A stretch of 32,000 nt of DNA from the NCBI GenBank assembly GCA_026396615.1, contig JAPLWK010000004.1, positions 48,739 to 80,738 of the forward strand, read 5' to 3'. The notes beneath the pieces were generated by a model. The model had not been told where the DNA came from. It saw nothing but the letters and a program-made list of their open reading frames with translations, and ran no database searches. Made by a program: the position numbers and the translations under genes. Positions 10,075 to 25,174 of the stretch are shown here, piece by piece; positions within the stretch are counted from its first letter, which is position 1, and each line of letters starts with the position of its first letter. Source of the DNA: a candidate division WWE3 bacterium. Its GTDB lineage: Bacteria; Patescibacteriota; WWE3; JAPLWK01.

Positions 10075-10172
10075 GTCATTCCGGGCTTGACCCGGAATCC
10101 AGTAACCCCGGCCGATTGTTTTTTGTTGTTTGTTATTTGTTTACTGGATTCCGGCTCCGGGGCCGGAATGAC
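10075..10172 (+). repeat. Palindromic mini-element copy 1 (full, 98 bp, intergenic)
   Basis: GTCATTCCGGGCTTGACCCGGAATCCAGTAA ... TTACTGGATTCCGGCTCCGGGGCCGGAATGAC. It begins 12 nt upstream of the dprA ATG and ends 10 nt after the stop of the upstream gene. Confidence 0.95.
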
Positions 10173-10181
10173 GAATCTTTT

Positions 10182-12662
10182 CTACAAATTCTCCCGATAA
10201 AATTTCGCCGCTTCTTCCGGACTGGCCTTATCATCAACCATAACGCCCGCCCCCAGCTCAATGCCAGCCAGGACCTTGAGGCGCGGCACCAGTTCCAAGT
10301 GCCAGTGATAGGACTTCTGATGACTGCTATAAAGACCGTATTTGGGAAGACTATGAATCCAGAAGTTATAAGCAGCATCACTAAAGCCTTTTTTAATGAC
10401 CGCGGTGACTTTGATTAATGACGCCGCCAAAGCCGCCATTTCCTCTTTGCGAATTTCCGTAAAGTCACTTTGATGGCGCTTCGGCAAAATCATTAGCTCA
10501 TAAGGCCAAGCCGAAGCGAAGGGCGTCACGACAATGATGTACTTATCCTCGTAGATAAGCCGCTCCGTGAAGACGTTGTCATTCTCTATAAGGCGACAAT
10601 ACACGCACTCGCCCCGCTCAGCGTAGTAAGAATCAGACTGAGTGACCTCTTCGGCAATCGTTTCCGGTAGACGATTGAAGATGACAAGTTGCGAATGAGG
10701 ATGCGAGAGACTGGCCCCGGCCGCCGCCCCATGATTGCAGTATAAGTGGGGGTAAAAGTCTTCCCGCTCGGCTGCATAATATTCGAAGCGTTGCTTGTAG
10801 GCGGCTAGAACGTTTAAAGCTTCAGGAACAGTGTAATCTGCCCAGTCGCGAGTCCCATCAGGATTATGAATAATGACTTCGTGGTAGTCGGTAATCGGAT
10901 ATTTGTTGGGCGTGACCCGCACTTGCCAACCCTCTTTGTTGATCTCACCGCCACCAATTCTGAAAACCTCGGGAGGCGTTAAAGCCTCATTGCCATAAGC
11001 AAAAGGGTCAACTTTGACCGTTGAACCCACGGAAACCGGTCGAGACTTTCGACTAGGGGCAATAACAGTCCACAATTCTTTGGTTTTATCGAAACGAAAG
11101 AGACCCCCTGCCTTACTTGTCATTCCGGCCCCGGAGCCGGAATCCAGTAACCCGGCCCGATTGTTGTTTGTTGTTTGTTGTTTGTTATCGAAATCGGCTT
11201 TACTGGATTCCAGGTCTTGTCCCGAATGACGAATTTGGTTGTTGGTTTTCTCTAAAATCACTACCTTCTTGTACACTTCCACATACTTCTCCGCTGACCG
11301 GGCCCAGGACCAGTCATAAGCCATGGCATTACAAACCATCTTTTTCCACGAATAAGGGTTTCCAAACGTTTTAGCAGTGCGGTTTATCGCTTCCCCTAGT
11401 GATTTCGGGGAAAAGTCTTTAAATACAAAACCGTCGATCCCGTCTTTAACACTATCGTGAAGCCCACCGACGTCCCGAACGACAGGTAGTGAGCCGTAGC
11501 GCATGGCAATCATTTGAGTGAGACCACAGGGCTCAAAACGGCTGGGAACCAGGAACAAATCCGACCCCGCATAAATGCGCCGCGCCAGTCCTTCATCAAA
11601 ACCAAGAACGGCCTTAAAGTCAGAATTTTGACCGAACCGATCGTTTTCCGACTTCAATTTTTCTTCCAGGGACTCTTCCCCACTGCCTAAAATGATAAGT
11701 TGTGCGTTATTTCTAAGTACCTCATTCAAACTACCGAGAACTAAGTCGATACCCTTTTGATGAGTCAAACGGCCAATTAAACCGATCACCAACTTCGTCG
11801 GATCCGGATTAAGTCCTAATTCTTTTTGAAGAGCTATTTTGTTAGCGAGTTTACCGCTAACGAAAAGCTCACTGTCATAGTGAGTTGAGATATTAGGATC
11901 GGTTTTAGGATCATAAGTGTCGGTATCGATGCCGTTAAGAATGCCAACCAGCCGACCGGCTCGGGCTCGCAGAACATCGTCTAACCCTTCCCCAAATTCC
12001 TGGGTCGTGATTTCACGAGCGTAATTCTCGGAAACTGTTGTCACTAAAGTACAACGAGTCACCCCTTGCAGAAGCAGGTCTAGATTGCTATCAGCTTCAT
12101 CCCAATCAAGCAGTCTATCTCTGTTAGTGATAAGATCAAGACTTTTGTTTATATCTAAAGAGGAAAAGCCCTGGTTAGCCAAATTGTGAATCGTTAAAAT
12201 CGTGGGCACGTGTTTATCTTTTAGAAAATATGGAATTAAAGCCGTGTGCCAGTCATTACAATGAACAAGATCTGGCTGAAGACTGTCGCAAAACTGAGCC
12301 ACGGCTTTACTGAAGAAGGCGAAGCGAGAAATTTCTTCTTGGGAGGAGGCGAAGGCTGATTTGTCAAAATAAACGCCGCCGTTACTTAAATAAGTCTCGT
12401 TTTGCAGAAAGAAAATCGGAACTTGTGACTCAGGAATCTTGCTAACGTAAACTGTGACCGACTCTTCTTTGTTGTTAAACCTGACCGAAAACTCTTCGCG
12501 CTTTGTCGTTACAGTGTCAACGAGAGATTTATAAAGCGGAATTACCACCGCCACCTCTACCCCGAGTGACAAAAGAGCCTTGGGTAAAGCTCCAATGACA
12601 TCGCCAAGACCACCGACTTTTATAAACGGGGCGCACTCTGAGGCCGCGAGCAGTACTTTCAT
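10182..12662 (-). CDS. glgA: Glycogen/starch synthase (GT5) fused in-frame to a GalT-family (HIT-like) hexose-1-phosphate nucleotidyltransferase
   Basis: N-terminal half: MKVLLAASECAPFIKVGGLGDV ... SRFEPCGLTQMIAMRYGSLPVVRDVGGL (GlgA). C-terminal half: CVYC and SLSHPHSQL (the GalT His-Pro-His active site). The two halves are joined by element copy 2. ATG 12662 is preferred over the track's TTG at 12665. Confidence 0.8.
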   Translation of the reverse strand: MKVLLAASECAPFIKVGGLGDVIGALPKALLSLGVEVAVVIPLYKSLVDTVTTKREEFSVRFNNKEESVTVYVSKIPESQVPIFFLQNETYLSNGGVYFDKSAFASSQEEISRFAFFSKAVAQFCDSLQPDLVHCNDWHTALIPYFLKDKHVPTILTIHNLANQGFSSLDINKSLDLITNRDRLLDWDEADSNLDLLLQGVTRCTLVTTVSENYAREITTQEFGEGLDDVLRARAGRLVGILNGIDTDTYDPKTDPNISTHYDSELFVSGKLANKIALQKELGLNPDPTKLVIGLIGRLTHQKGIDLVLGSLNEVLRNNAQLIILGSGEESLEEKLKSENDRFGQNSDFKAVLGFDEGLARRIYAGSDLFLVPSRFEPCGLTQMIAMRYGSLPVVRDVGGLHDSVKDGIDGFVFKDFSPKSLGEAINRTAKTFGNPYSWKKMVCNAMAYDWSWARSAEKYVEVYKKVVILEKTNNQIRHSGQDLESSKADFDNKQQTTNNNRAGLLDSGSGAGMTSKAGGLFRFDKTKELWTVIAPSRKSRPVSVGSTVKVDPFAYGNEALTPPEVFRIGGGEINKEGWQVRVTPNKYPITDYHEVIIHNPDGTRDWADYTVPEALNVLAAYKQRFEYYAAEREDFYPHLYCNHGAAAGASLSHPHSQLVIFNRLPETIAEEVTQSDSYYAERGECVYCRLIENDNVFTERLIYEDKYIIVVTPFASAWPYELMILPKRHQSDFTEIRKEEMAALAASLIKVTAVIKKGFSDAAYNFWIHSLPKYGLYSSHQKSYHWHLELVPRLKVLAGIELGAGVMVDDKASPEEAAKFYRENL
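11119..11230 (-). repeat. Palindromic mini-element copy 2 (full, inverted orientation, 112 bp, read through in-frame)
   Basis: GTCATTCCGGCCCCGGAGCCGGAATCCAGTAA ... TTACTGGATTCCAGGTCTTGTCCCGAATGAC (degenerate second arm). Translated as RHSGQDLESSKADFDNKQQTTNNNRAGLLDSGSGAGMTSK. Confidence 0.95.
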
Positions 12663-23960: not shown

Positions 23961-25159
23961 AAAATAATTTCCCACAAGATTTTCTTTGGGGCGCCGCCAC
24001 TTCTTCACACCAAGTCGAGGGCGGCAACGTCAATAATGACTGGTATCAAGCAGAACAGCAAGGACGCATCCCTAAAGCAGGGCTAGCCTGTGACTCGTAT
24101 CACCGATTTGAAGGCGATTTTGACCTCGCTGCTTCACTTGGACATAACTGCCACCGCCTCTCACTCGAATGGTCGCGCCTGGAACCAACTGAGGGCCACT
24201 TTGATCAAGCAGAATTTGATCACTATAAAATCGTCCTTCAGTCTTTGCGCAGACATCACTTAAAGTCCTTCGTAACCCTCTGGCACTTTACAACACCGAT
24301 ATGGTTTACCCTGAGCTTGTCGAAGGGCTGGGAGAACAAACGTTCGGTCGAATATTTTCGACGCTACGCGGAAAAATGCGCCAGGGAATTTGGCGATTTA
24401 GTTGACTTTTGGGCGCCTTTTAACGAGACTACCATTTATGGTTTTGAGGGCTACCTTGAGGGCAAGTGGCCGCCGTTTAAAAAAGGCAATTATTTAAGCT
24501 GTCTACGTTTTATTTGGACGCAAATCAAAGCTCATAAAGCCGTGTATGAAGCAATAAAGAAGTTATTGCCAGAGGCCAAAGTCGGCCCCGCTATTAACTT
24601 TTGCTCTTTTGAACCATATCGACCGGGCAACCTTCTGGACTGCGCCGCCACTTGGCTCAACAGCACTCTTTATAACAAAGTAATGATGATTGCCACTAAA
24701 AATTACTCAGACTATATAGGATGCAATTATTATTTTCACAAACACGTCATGTTTAAACTCCGGGCGAGCAAGCTATTTTTGGCCGACAACATTCCCAATA
24801 GCCTATGGGTCAATGATCTGGGTTGGGAAATATATCCTAGAGGAATTTATGAAGTTTTGACGGATCTTAAAAGTTACGGCAAGCCGATTTATATCACAGA
24901 GAACGGGTTGGCAGATTCACATGACGTTAGTCGGAGGCGCTTAATTGAAGAAACTTTGACCTGGGTACAACAGGCGATGAGTGAGGGCGCAAATGTTCGA
25001 GGTTATATTCAGTGGGCCTTAATCGATAATTATGAATGGAGTGAAGGGTTTGGACCAAGATTCGGGTTGATCGCGGTCGACTACGAGCATGATTTAAAGA
25101 GGACGGTACGACCGAGTGCTCTTTGGTTTCGAGACAAAATATTGTCATTCCGGGCTTGA
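23957..25159 (+). CDS. Glycoside hydrolase family 1 beta-glucosidase
   Basis: FLWGAATSSHQVEG, acid/base region PFNET, nucleophile motif YITENG, and WALIDNYEW. There is a 4-nt ATGA overlap with fmt. Confidence 0.85.
   Translation: MKNNFPQDFLWGAATSSHQVEGGNVNNDWYQAEQQGRIPKAGLACDSYHRFEGDFDLAASLGHNCHRLSLEWSRLEPTEGHFDQAEFDHYKIVLQSLRRHHLKSFVTLWHFTTPIWFTLSLSKGWENKRSVEYFRRYAEKCAREFGDLVDFWAPFNETTIYGFEGYLEGKWPPFKKGNYLSCLRFIWTQIKAHKAVYEAIKKLLPEAKVGPAINFCSFEPYRPGNLLDCAATWLNSTLYNKVMMIATKNYSDYIGCNYYFHKHVMFKLRASKLFLADNIPNSLWVNDLGWEIYPRGIYEVLTDLKSYGKPIYITENGLADSHDVSRRRLIEETLTWVQQAMSEGANVRGYIQWALIDNYEWSEGFGPRFGLIAVDYEHDLKRTVRPSALWFRDKILSFRA
24309..24327. repeat. 19-mer CCCTGAGCTTGTCGAAGGG inside the GH1 gene
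   Basis: Identical to 9564-9582. Encodes TLSLSKGW. Confidence 0.85.
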
Positions 25160-25174
25160 CCCGGAATCCAGTAA
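25144..25174 (+). repeat. Palindromic mini-element copy 10 (solo arm)
   Basis: GTCATTCCGGGCTTGACCCGGAATCCAGTAA. It provides the last residues SFRA and the TGA stop of the GH1 gene. Confidence 0.9.

What the first reader, a model, noticed from the sequence alone, without database searches (positions are those of the whole stretch)
10075..25174. RPE/MITE-like palindromic mini-element: 10 copies, 9 packed into 9.3 kb, most lying inside reading frames
A 31-nt arm, GTCATTCCGGGCTTGACCCGGAATCCAGTAA, is itself a hairpin (ATTCCGGG-CTTGA-CCCGGAAT). Its imperfect inverted partner is TTACTGGATTCCGGCTCCGGGGCCGGAATGAC (ATTCCGGC-TCCGGG-GCCGGAAT). The two arms flank a variable T/G-rich spacer. Full two-armed copies: 10075-10172 and 13206-13303 (98 bp, one base different), 11119-11230 and 13872-13950 (opposite orientation), 17069-17224, 18502-18568 (arms nearly abutting), 19266-19372 (enlarged loop). 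Solo arms: 12696-12724, 14315-14345, 25144-25174. No transposase is in the window. Four of the six arm reading frames are open (VIPGLTRNPV, HSGLDPESS, YWIPGQARND, TGFRVKPGMT) and two end in TGA (SFRA-stop, LLDSGSSPE-stop). The genome uses both kinds: copies are read through in-frame in glgA-galT and a GH57 gene, and copies supply the C-terminus and stop of four other genes. This coding-tolerant behaviour is what has been described for Rickettsia palindromic elements. The hairpin arm is architecturally reminiscent of Neisseria dRS3 (ATTCCC-N8-GGGAAT). I do not recognise this sequence family as described.
Basis: partly seen in the sequence, partly recalled or inferred. Interest (0 to 1): 0.85.

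Follow-up and report, generated by a model that had tools for sequence, protein, structure and literature searches.

The report
CGTC-tagged hairpin repeats invading genes
The repeats are real, but they belong to an already described, pan-bacterial family of tagged DNA hairpins (CGTC-REPs, which include Neisseria dRS3/NTS and Rickettsia RPE-4/-6, the recognition sites of the small Ssn single-strand nuclease), found here in a candidate-phylum WWE3 genome where many copies sit inside or at the ends of genes.

Summary
The window holds 16 perfect hairpin arms and 1 degenerate arm. They form 7 inverted two-armed units and 3 solo arms, and 9 of the 10 copies lie within 9.3 kb of a glycogen/glycosyl-transferase cluster.

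The family is not undescribed. Each arm is (C/T)GTC + 8-bp stem ATTCCGG(G/C) + loop + C(C/T)A tail. This is the anatomy of the CGTC-tagged REP superfamily (Di Nocera 2013), which includes Neisseria dRS3 and Rickettsia RPE-4/-6. Both flanks match the Neisseria NTS motif that the GIY-YIG ssDNA nuclease SsnA cuts (Chenal 2025).

The same 29-mer occurs in more than 120 genome stretches from many phyla. In one MAG it flanks an Ssn-like gene. In 6 of 7 ssn loci examined, ssn lies between two outward-tagged arms. The window's dimers therefore look like ssn-less miniatures of that cassette.

GH57 orthologues and distant fusion homologues lack the element-coded peptides, so these are true in-frame insertions into a linker and two loops. 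Four genes take their stop codon from an arm.

No ssn gene, transposase or target-site duplication is in the window. Mobility and Ssn dependence in this genome are inferred, not shown. Verdict: new member of a known kind, moderate interest.

The parts
10075..10172 (+). Head-to-head (tags outside) heterodimer, 98 bp. Arm A is TGTC|ATTCCGGG|CTTGA|CCCGGAAT|CCAG. A T/G-rich spacer follows, then inverted arm B (CGTC|ATTCCGGC|CCCGGA|GCCGGAAT|CCAG on the minus strand). Intergenic, between the glgA-galT stop (10182) and the dprA start (10063).
   Evidence: Logan contig L121 ends inside arm A
11119..11231 (-). Head-to-head dimer with a perfect arm B (11119-11150) and a degenerate arm A (11203-11231). 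Read in frame as IRHSGQDLESS...GSGAGMT in the linker between the GT5 glycogen-synthase domain and the GalT/HIT domain of the 827-aa fusion protein.
   Evidence: (segment absent from fusion homologues P0004-P0010)
12695..12760 (+). Solo arm A (12695-12724), followed by an unrelated G+C hairpin. The minus-strand reading of that hairpin starts GTAG, so this may be a CGTC/GTAG hybrid dimer. Intergenic, between the GH57-1 stop (12779) and the glgA-galT start (12665).
13206..13303 (+). Head-to-head heterodimer, 98 bp, one base different from 10075-10172. Read in frame as VIPAPEPESSKQITNNKKQSAGVTGFRVKPGMT (residues 351-383 of the GH57-1 ORF).
   Evidence: pLDDT <50 over most of it
13872..13950 (-). 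Head-to-head heterodimer, 79 bp. Read in its only open frame as RHSGLDPESSKSDQSELLDSGSGAGMT (residues 135-161 of the GH57-1 ORF).
   Evidence: absent from paralogue GH57-2; absent from 441-460 aa orthologues
14314..14345 (+). Solo arm A. Supplies the last nine codons and the TGA stop of GH57-2 (...LLDSGSSPE*). Lies just upstream of the GH57-1 ATG (about 14305).
   Evidence: (P0241, 508 aa, fixes the start)
17069..17224 (+). Head-to-head heterodimer, 156 bp. Its spacer carries a nested GTAG-tagged hairpin dimer (17114-17137 + / 17155-17178 -). Probably intergenic, upstream of the real start of glgA-2.
   Evidence: I3; GT5 domain starts at residue 58 of the ORF
18502..18568 (+). Head-to-head heterodimer whose 31/32-nt arms are 4 nt apart. 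Supplies the last 13 codons and the stop of the WecG-family gene (...SFRPLSRNPVNDY*).
19266..19372 (+). Head-to-head dimer. Arm A carries a compensatory stem change (ATTCCGGC/GCCGGAAT). The second arm has a 16-nt loop. Supplies about 35 C-terminal codons and the stop of the GT4 gene (...SFRASASRDPESSQSNNTGHENRSELLDSGSRPE*).
25143..25174 (+). Solo arm A between convergent genes. Supplies ...SFRA* of the GH1 gene and lies 5 nt from the stop of rpmB (L28).

Best explanation
The repeats are CGTC-tagged repetitive palindromes. This is the superfamily that contains Neisseria dRS3/NTS and Rickettsia RPE-4/-6, and that overlaps the 'Ssn-related motifs' of 2025.

Shown:
- Each arm is an oriented ssDNA hairpin made of a (C/T)GTC tag, an 8-bp stem beginning A-T/T-A, a short loop and a C(C/T)A tail.
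- The arms stand mostly as head-to-head dimers with the tags outside.
- The host is a candidate division WWE3 (Patescibacteria) MAG.
- The core sequence is shared almost unchanged across many phyla. Its stem is kept by compensatory changes.
- Elsewhere, small GIY-YIG Ssn-like genes sit between two such outward-tagged arms.
- The intragenic copies are true in-frame insertions into an inter-domain linker and two low-confidence loops of GH57.
- Other copies fill intergenic gaps, and four donate a short C-terminal tail and a TGA stop.

Inferred:
- The arms are recognition and cleavage sites of an Ssn-type ssDNA nuclease. Such an enzyme binds the hairpin and cuts just 5' of the tag, that is, at the outer edge of a dimer on each strand.
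- The two-armed units are non-autonomous miniatures of an [arm -> ssn <- arm] cassette. They spread through single-stranded DNA without target duplication.
- In this compact genome they survive only where selection tolerates them: open frames in loops, gene ends and intergenic gaps.
- Secondary effects are likely. One is strong stem-loops in the polycistronic mRNA. The other, if the genome has Ssn, is fragmentation of homologous incoming ssDNA during natural transformation, as shown in Neisseria.
For: Anatomy:
- All 16 perfect arms have a CGTC or TGTC tag, an 8-bp stem starting AT, a loop, and a CCA or CTA tail.
- There are 7 dimers with tags outside.
- The arms fold as ssDNA hairpins (z about -3 to -4). 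Whole units fold as long hairpins (z -4.4 to -8.7).
- These are the defining features listed in PMC3733652.

Link to NTS/Ssn:
- The 9-nt 5' part CGTCATTCC and the 3' part GGAATCCAG are identical to the NTS consensus CGTCATTCCCGCGMAVGCGGGAATCYRG.
- The GTC upstream of the stem and the C after it are invariant in all 16 arms. These are the positions the paper found critical for cleavage and binding.
- In other phyla, 69 of 130 arm-A-type hits have an inverted partner within about 150 nt. The commonest partner is the exact reverse complement of canonical NTS.
- In L088 the identical arm A lies beside and downstream of a 96-aa GIY-YIG ORF (PF01541, E = 1e-17) that sits between arm A and an inverted arm.
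- In 6 of 7 ssn loci the gene lies between a forward and a reverse arm with tags outside.

Structure is under selection: the 8th stem pair is G-C 52, A-T 31, C-G 16 and non-pairing 2, with a constant CTTGA loop.

Insertions:
- GH57 orthologues of 441-460 aa lack both segments.
- The paralogue GH57-2 lacks the first segment.
- Distant glgA-galT fusion homologues lack the linker segment.
- The AlphaFold model has pLDDT <50 at residues 121-147 and 343-361, which overlap the two inserts.
- A 61%-identical orthologue (L157) carries a different CGTC-type hairpin, TGTC|ATCCCC...GGGGAT|CCAG, at the same loop.
- The intragenic dimers are read in one of their 1-3 open frames.

No target-site duplication is present.
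Against: - No GIY-YIG/Ssn gene is in the 32 kb. The rest of the MAG could not be retrieved. Whether this genome has the nuclease is therefore unknown.
- The published degenerate SRM pattern gives 0 exact hits. Arm A fits it only with one substitution, and arm B does not fit.
- The paper reports that changing the stem sequence while keeping the hairpin abolishes activity of the Neisseria enzyme. Cleavage of these arms would therefore need a cognate Ssn.
- Ssn has been shown to be a nuclease that restricts transformation, not a transposase. Mobility by Ssn is a hypothesis.
- No recent transposition is shown, because no near-identical empty sites were found.
- Arm B has a 6-nt loop and one arm has a 16-nt loop, outside the 4-5 nt given for CGTC families.
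Confidence: 0.75

Rival explanations
1. A classical MITE. In this reading the unit is a deletion derivative of a DDE-type insertion sequence, and a transposase encoded elsewhere moves it by acting on the terminal inverted repeats.
For: The unit has two inverted arms around a short non-coding spacer, occurs in many copies and clusters locally.
Against: There are no target-site duplications at any of the 7 dimers. No transposase is in the window. Solo arms are common. The arms are self-folding tagged hairpins shared across phyla rather than IS ends. In other genomes the gene found between such arms is a GIY-YIG nuclease.
Confidence: 0.05
2. REPIN-like elements moved by a RAYT (IS200/IS605-type Y1 transposase), as for GTAG-tagged REPs.
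For: This mechanism also uses hairpins and ssDNA and leaves no duplication. A GTAG-tagged dimer is nested in the 17069-17224 unit, so a RAYT-type system may exist in this genome.
Against: The main family carries CGTC/TGTC tags, not GTAG. The 2013 survey found no RAYT flanked by CGTC units. No Y1 transposase is in the window.
Confidence: 0.07
3. The repeats are primarily RNA-level or regulatory elements, such as terminators, mRNA-stabilising stem-loops or operon punctuation. In this reading selection keeps them for that role, and any nuclease relation is incidental.
For: Every intergenic gap from 10.0 to 19.4 kb except the GH57-2/glgA-2 overlap holds one copy. The units fold very stably. REPs are reported mostly downstream of ORFs and are probably transcribed.
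Against: Only one of the 17 arms passes the simple terminator scan. Three dimers lie inside coding sequence, where a regulatory hairpin has no evident role. The tag and tail nucleotides lie outside the stem yet are invariant here and across phyla, which fits recognition by a protein rather than RNA folding alone.
Confidence: 0.08
4. Attachment or target sites for a site-specific recombinase, an IS110-type element or a filamentous phage, as reported for dRS3 in Neisseria.
For: dRS3 is a known target of a phage recombinase. A XerC/D-like recombinase (4595-5515) and an excisionase-type HTH protein (17633-18436) are in the window.
Against: Nothing is integrated at any of the 17 arms. The recombinase scores far below the XerC/D equivalog cut-offs but looks like an ordinary chromosomal Xer protein, and it is not next to an arm. 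Only 9 of about 2.9 million viral contigs carry the core sequence.
Confidence: 0.05

Closest known systems
CGTC-tagged REP superfamily, families CGTC-1 to -4 (Di Nocera, De Gregorio & Rocco 2013, PMC3733652)
   Same: The arms share the unpaired CGTC/TGTC tag, the 8-bp stem starting A-T/T-A, the 5-nt loop (arm A) and the CCA-type tail. Head-to-head heterodimers predominate. Spacers range from a few nt to about 100 nt and sometimes carry their own stem-loops. Intragenic dimers encode 20-30 aa, and some copies overlap ORF ends.
   Different: The host phylum (Patescibacteria/WWE3) is not among the five phyla listed there. Arm B has a 6-nt loop and one arm has a 16-nt loop. The share of copies in or touching genes is very high (3 intragenic and 4 stop-donating, out of 10).
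Neisseria NTS/dRS3 and 'Ssn-related motifs' with the GIY-YIG ssDNA nuclease SsnA (Chenal et al. 2025, PMC11893778)
   Same: Both flanks are identical (CGTCATTCC...GGAATCCAG). The hairpin is oriented. Copies cluster around particular genes. The identical arm flanks an Ssn-like gene in another genome (L088). Canonical NTS is the usual inverted partner of arm A in other phyla.
   Different: The inner stem and loop differ from NTS. The strict SRM pattern is not matched. No ssn gene is in the window. NTS is rarely inside genes (2% in N. meningitidis), whereas intragenic copies are frequent here.
Rickettsia palindromic elements RPE-4 and RPE-6 (equated with CGTC-4 and CGTC-1 in PMC3733652)
   Same: These are also in-frame insertions of palindromic repeats into functional genes, adding short peptide segments. 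They belong to the same tagged-hairpin superfamily according to the 2013 paper.
   Different: Sequence similarity to the RPE consensus sequences was not tested here. The host is not an intracellular alphaproteobacterium.
REPIN/RAYT systems (GTAG-tagged REPs)
   Same: Both have inverted hairpin doublets that are probably non-autonomous. In both, the associated gene sits between inverted repeats, and there is no target duplication.
   Different: The tag is different (GTAG). The enzyme is different (Y1 transposase versus GIY-YIG nuclease), and transposition has not been shown for Ssn.
Neisseria intergenic mosaic elements (NIMEs)
   Same: Variable short segments are bracketed by inverted dRS3-type hairpins, in clusters near particular genes. 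(NIME anatomy recalled from prior knowledge; the papers read here only mention the name and that clustered Neisseria CGTC-1 elements are interleaved with other repeats.)
   Different: The window units are simple dimers, not long mosaics, and many of them are coding.

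Membership tests
CGTC-tagged REP superfamily | Unpaired terminal tag CGTC (variants TGTC/CCTC) | tested here: met
   All 16 perfect arms carry a tag: 4 CGTC and 12 TGTC. The degenerate arm has CGTC. Definition.
CGTC-tagged REP superfamily | Stem of 8-9 bp whose first two pairs are A-T and T-A | tested here: met
   The stem is ATTCCGGG/CCCGGAAT or ATTCCGGC/GCCGGAAT, 8 bp with no mismatches in 16 arms. It folds as ssDNA.
CGTC-tagged REP superfamily | Loop of 4-5 nt | tested here: inconclusive
   Nine arm-A hairpins have the 5-nt loop CTTGA. Six arm-B hairpins have 6-nt loops and one arm has a 16-nt loop. The paper itself notes families with other loop lengths.
CGTC-tagged REP superfamily | Short unpaired 3' tail fitting CCA | tested here: met
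   The tail is CCA in 14 arms and CTA in 2.
CGTC-tagged REP superfamily | Mostly head-to-head dimers (tags outside), often heterodimers, with spacers from 1-2 bp to about 100 bp | tested here: met
   There are 7 dimers, all with tags outside and all heterodimers, in units of 67-156 bp.
NTS / Ssn-related motif (SRM) | Match to the NTS consensus CGTCATTCCCGCGMAVGCGGGAATCYRG | tested here: not met
   The flanks CGTCATTCC and GGAATCCAG are identical, but the inner stem and loop differ and an indel is needed.
NTS / Ssn-related motif (SRM) | Match to the published degenerate SRM search pattern | tested here: not met
   There are 0 exact hits in the window. With one substitution there are 12 hits, 9 of them arm A or its degenerate copy, against a mean of 3.4 in shuffles. 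Arm B does not match.
NTS / Ssn-related motif (SRM) | Conserved oriented nucleotides needed by SsnA: three nt upstream of the palindrome and a C just after it | tested here: met
   GTC upstream and C downstream are present in 16 of 16 arms. The requirement is stated.
NTS / Ssn-related motif (SRM) | Repeats flank a gene for a small single-domain GIY-YIG (cd10448) protein | tested here: inconclusive
   This is not met in the window, which has no GIY-YIG. It is met elsewhere for the identical arm A in L088, and for related arms in 6 of 7 ssn loci. Assignment to cd10448 could not be tested; only Pfam PF01541 was.
NTS / Ssn-related motif (SRM) | Cleaved as ssDNA by its cognate Ssn; the host genome encodes Ssn | not testable with these tools
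   Only 32 kb of the 80.9-kb contig and of the MAG are available. No biochemistry is possible.
Rickettsia palindromic elements | Palindromic repeat inserted in frame in genes whose homologues lack it | tested here: met
   Three intragenic dimers are absent from GH57 orthologues and distant fusion homologues and from a paralogue. They fall in low-confidence loops.
Rickettsia palindromic elements | Sequence similarity to an RPE consensus | not tested
   No RPE sequences were compared. The link rests on the 2013 paper's assignment of RPE-4/-6 to CGTC families.
MITE (strict sense) | Target-site duplication and a related autonomous IS with a transposase | tested here: not met
   The flanks of the 7 dimers share no direct repeat. 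No transposase is in the window.
REPIN/RAYT | GTAG tag and an associated Y1 transposase | tested here: not met
   The main family has CGTC/TGTC tags. Only a nested pair at 17114-17178 has GTAG. No RAYT is in the window.

The most novel reading that the evidence does not exclude
The head-to-head dimers are the non-autonomous 'MITE equivalents' of an [arm -> ssn <- arm] cassette, and the GIY-YIG Ssn nuclease is the long-missing mobilising enzyme of the whole CGTC-REP superfamily (dRS3, RPE-4/-6 and others). Because Ssn cuts just 5' of each tag, it would cut at both outer edges of a dimer, on opposite strands. In ultra-small Patescibacteria genomes this system would still be active and would be rewriting protein loops, linkers and C-termini.
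Probability: 0.3. Interest if true: 0.7.

Novelty: new member of a known kind. Interest (0 to 1): 0.35.

Why it matters
It connects two literatures on one concrete locus. The 2013 CGTC-REP survey concluded that these repeats 'apparently lack a dedicated transposase'. The 2025 Ssn paper found a nuclease whose gene is flanked by such hairpins.

The window and the ssn loci examined here share one frame: two outward-tagged arms around either a short spacer or the ssn gene. This makes the idea that Ssn propagates these repeats directly testable.

The window also extends the family to a candidate-phylum (WWE3) genome with almost no intergenic space, and to at least one further such MAG (L157). There the repeats survive largely by being translated or by donating stop codons. 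This matters for annotating Patescibacteria proteins, because odd peptides such as VIPA.., SFR.. and LLDSGS.. are repeat-derived. It is also a natural experiment on which protein sites tolerate insertions.

Tried and rejected
- **Rfam and tRNA scans:** the window gave nothing.
- **Strict SRM pattern:** 0 hits. This was kept as a failed membership feature, not as evidence against relatedness.
- **Retrieving the rest of the source contig** (80.9 kb, WWE3 MAG), to look for ssn and count copies:
  - Exact-protein look-ups failed for four window proteins and for P0001.
  - Only a 1.6-kb Logan contig was found.
  - A metagenome scan with the lineage-specific spacer found nothing.
  - A metagenome scan with arm B found 14 contigs of mixed G+C, none from this lineage and none with ssn.
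- **Intrinsic-terminator reading:** rejected as the general explanation, because 1 of 17 arms qualifies.
- **Phage vector idea:** only 9 viral contigs carry the core.
- **Target-site duplications:** none.
- **ORF 25179-25430 next to the solo arm:** checked as a possible ssn gene; it is ribosomal protein L28.
- **Structure and family look-ups for the L088 protein:** PDB gave only a distant UPF0213 hit, and NCBIfam gave only a sub-threshold GIY-YIG homing-endonuclease hit. Assignment to cd10448 remains untested.
- **A recalled SsnA-like sequence used as a tblastn probe:** this came from memory and is not evidence. The L088 hit was re-tested with Pfam.

Full report
**1. Observation**

Arm A has 9 hits and arm B has 6 hits at up to 3 mismatches, against none in shuffled sequence.

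A structural scan looked for GTC followed by a perfect stem. It finds 16 arms with an 8-bp stem and no mismatch, plus one degenerate arm at 11203-11231. They make seven two-armed units and three solo arms.

Nine of the ten copies lie in 9.3 kb. Simulation gives P about 0.003 for clustering this tight. The arms fold as ssDNA hairpins, and whole units fold as long hairpins well beyond shuffled controls.

The statements about reading frames, in-frame read-through and donated stop codons are all correct.

**2. Host and setting**

The 827-aa glgA-galT fusion and the GH57 protein are 100% identical to proteins of a 'candidate division WWE3 bacterium' MAG, on an 80,908-bp contig. This places the window in Patescibacteria/CPR.

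The genes in order are:
- an NYN-domain protein, an unknown 696-aa protein, a XerC/D-like recombinase, a deacetylase, TopA and DprA;
- the minus-strand run glgA-galT, GH57-1, GH57-2, glgA-2, an excisionase-type HTH protein, WecG and GT4;
- then PEGA, sortase, Def, Fmt, GH1, L28, Fic, YkuD, VTT and PyrG.

Every intergenic gap of the minus-strand run holds one copy, except the GH57-2/glgA-2 overlap. No GIY-YIG protein, transposase or RAYT is present.

**3. The arm is not genome-specific**

The hits come from:
- Binatia, Nitrospirota, Thermodesulfobacteriota and Chloroflexota;
- Beta-, Gamma- and Alphaproteobacteria;
- Bacteroidota, Armatimonadota, Verrucomicrobiota and Elusimicrobia;
- several CPR groups, one archaeal MAG and two cultured strains.

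The commonest inner sequence is exactly that of the window (GCTTGAC, 46 times).

The eighth stem pair covaries: G-C 52, A-T 31, C-G 16 and non-pairing 2. The loop CTTGA stays constant. The window's own copy at 19266 shows the same compensatory change. The hairpin is therefore under selection as a structure. Its unpaired tag and tail are also invariant, which points to recognition by a protein.

**4. What is known**

A literature search on the sequence itself led to Chenal et al. 2025 (PMC11893778).
- The Neisseria NTS, CGTCATTCCCGCGMAVGCGGGAATCYRG, extends the classical dRS3 (ATTCCC-N8-GGGAAT).
- The 94-aa GIY-YIG nuclease SsnA binds NTS and cuts it, as ssDNA only and strand-specifically, a few nt upstream.
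- The three nt before the palindrome matter most for cutting. The C after it matters most for binding.
- ssnA homologues are widespread and typically flanked by such 'Ssn-related motifs'.
- In Neisseria the system restricts integration of NTS-containing transforming DNA.

A second search found Di Nocera et al. 2013 (PMC3733652). It defines the CGTC-tagged REP superfamily:
- a CGTC/TGTC tag;
- an 8-9 bp stem starting A-T, T-A;
- a 4-5 nt loop and a CCA tail;
- mostly head-to-head dimers (tags outside), often heterodimers, with spacers from 1-2 to about 100 bp.

That paper also reports intragenic dimers encoding 20-30 aa and copies at ORF ends. It states that CGTC-1 in Neisseria is dRS3, and that CGTC-1/-4 in Rickettsia conorii are RPE-6/RPE-4. 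[quoted passage not shown]

**5. Membership**

The window arms meet the tag, stem, tail and dimer criteria of CGTC-REPs. Arm A meets the loop criterion. Arm B (6 nt) and one arm (16 nt) do not.

Against NTS/SRM the results are mixed:
- Both flanks and the functionally critical GTC and C are identical.
- The inner stem differs.
- The published degenerate SRM pattern gives no exact hit. Arm A fits with one substitution and arm B does not.

I therefore file the repeats as CGTC-REPs. They are NTS-like hairpins whose relation to Ssn is supported by association, not by the published pattern.

**6. Association with Ssn**

- Among the 120 loci, L088 has a 96-aa GIY-YIG ORF (PF01541, E = 1e-17). The identical arm A lies upstream of it and an inverted arm lies downstream. 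A second copy of arm A lies further downstream.
- Relatives of this protein number in the thousands. They are 70-78% identical across Betaproteobacteria, Smithellaceae, Nitrospirae and Dehalococcoidia.
- In 6 of 7 ssn loci read, the gene lies between a forward arm and a reverse arm with tags outside. The seventh has two forward arms.
- In other phyla, 69 of 130 arm-A-type hits have an inverted partner within about 150 nt. The commonest partner is the exact reverse complement of canonical NTS.

The window's dimers thus have the same frame as the ssn cassette, with a short spacer in place of the gene. This is the basis for reading them as non-autonomous derivatives. It is an inference from architecture, not a demonstration of mobility.

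**7. Coding copies are insertions**

*glgA-galT.* The unit at 11119-11231 encodes about 38 residues of the linker between the two domains. Fusion homologues at 38-43% identity go straight from one domain to the other. The two closest homologues carry different sequences there.

*GH57-1.* The two units encode residues 135-161 and 351-383 of the ORF.
- Orthologues of 441-460 aa, including named WWE3 proteins, have a gap at the first site and about 10 residues in place of the insert at the second site.
- The adjacent paralogue GH57-2 lacks the first unit.
- An AlphaFold model built on the orthologue alignment is confident overall (pTM 0.74). It has pLDDT below 50 at residues 121-147 and 343-361, which overlap the two inserts. 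Low confidence is partly expected there, because the alignment has no information at those positions.
- A 61%-identical orthologue (L157) has a different CGTC-type hairpin, TGTC|ATCCCC...GGGGAT|CCAG with a large structured loop, at the same first site. Other relatives carry unrelated low-complexity inserts at both sites. These loops are therefore repeated landing places, or places where insertions are tolerated.

*Frames.* Each intragenic dimer is read in one of its few open frames, 1 to 3 of 6.

*Stops.* Four genes end in an arm:
- GH57-2: ...LLDSGSSPE*
- WecG: ...SFRPLSRNPVNDY*
- GT4: a 35-residue tail
- GH1...SFRA*

**8. Mechanism, with shown and inferred steps marked**

*Shown:* the anatomy; conservation with covariation; the cross-phylum spread; the association of the same arm with an Ssn-like gene; the in-frame insertions; the absence of target duplication.

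*From the literature:* Ssn enzymes bind such hairpins in ssDNA and cut just 5' of them, strand-specifically. In Neisseria this lowers recombination of incoming DNA that carries the repeats.

*Inferred:*
- A cognate Ssn recognises arms A and B.
- In a head-to-head dimer each strand presents one forward arm at its 5' edge, so cutting would fall at both outer borders.
- The dimers spread through ssDNA intermediates.
- In this compact genome only copies in gaps, at gene ends or in permissive loops persist.

The neighbourhood of dprA and the known reliance of Patescibacteria on DNA uptake make an effect on transformation conceivable, but nothing here tests it.

**9. Rivals**

- *Strict MITE:* contradicted by the lack of duplications and of a transposase.
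- *RAYT/REPIN:* contradicted by the tag.
- *Purely RNA-level role:* does not explain the invariant unpaired tag and tail. Only 1 of 17 arms looks like a terminator.
- *Recombinase or phage attachment site:* nothing is integrated at any arm, and there are few viral hits.

**10. Verdict**

What is new:
- the host group, with a second intragenic CGTC-type insert in a related MAG (L157);
- the very high fraction of copies that are translated or donate stops;
- the explicit match between head-to-head dimers and the ssn cassette.

The library search found no paper linking Patescibacteria with REP-type repeats.

Novelty: new member of a known kind. Interest: 0.35.

Noticed in passing
window 17114-17137 (+) and 17155-17178 (-): A head-to-head pair of GTAG-tagged hairpins (GTAGGGGCTTGATTCATCAAGCCC / GTAGGGGCCGGATTTATCCGGCCC) is nested in the spacer of the CGTC dimer at 17069-17224. 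Both REP superfamilies therefore seem to coexist in this genome.
   Followed up: partly
window 12725-12760: The solo arm at 12696 is followed by a G+C hairpin whose minus-strand reading begins GTAG (GTAGTGGCGGGGTTTTCCCGCC). This may be a CGTC/GTAG hybrid dimer. The hairpin also scores as a plus-strand terminator-like site.
   Followed up: partly
window 99-115, 8423-8439 (TopA), 9565-9581 (DprA), 24310-24326 (GH1): The 17-mer CCTGA(G/T)CT(T/C)GTCGAAGG occurs four times, at least three of them inside genes, where it encodes LSLSKG- or FDKLR-type peptides. It looks like a second short repeat family that is tolerated in coding sequence.
   Followed up: partly
window 4499-4538, 14535-14574, 20426-20465: A 40-nt repeat is built of TTCGGAT-like units spaced about 10-11 nt apart. 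Two copies lie at or next to divergent gene starts (696-aa gene/xerC-like, and GT4/PEGA). The third lies inside GH57-2, at the same loop where GH57-1 carries a CGTC dimer. It may be an array of binding sites for a regulator.
   Followed up: no
window 8858-8961 and 28621-28724 (also 8793-8958, 28596-28721): An A+T-rich 104-nt repeat (85% identical) with internal inverted repeats lies upstream of topA and between ykuD and the VTT gene. GH57 orthologues P0251 and P0245 carry N/S/K-rich inserts that look like translations of similar A+T-rich repeats.
   Followed up: no
L007, L013, L038, L077, L093, L105, L106 and others (genome-contig loci): In several phyla the arm A + NTS dimer sits inside a larger, conserved inverted repeat (for example TAGTGCGTCAGAAGTCCCTTTAC...GTAAAGAAGCGT..ACGCACTA). 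This is reminiscent of the palindromic 'target' sequences reported around Halothiobacillus CGTC-1 dimers.
   Followed up: no
L011 5540-5700 and L044 1867-2168: Tandem arrays of the hairpin occur with a fixed 47-nt period (Armatimonadota) or 62-nt period (an Enterobacteriaceae-labelled MAG). The organisation is head-to-tail, which the 2013 survey calls negligible.
   Followed up: no
L054 (Woesearchaeota-labelled MAG, 2242-2270): The bacterial-type arm occurs in a contig binned as archaeal. This could be a binning error or a cross-domain occurrence.
   Followed up: no
window 13110-13351 versus 14431-14639, and 13538-13855 versus 14823-15119: The two GH57 paralogues share stretches of 77-88% nucleotide identity (repeat families D7, D13, D15, D17). 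This suggests a recent duplication or gene conversion between them.
   Followed up: no
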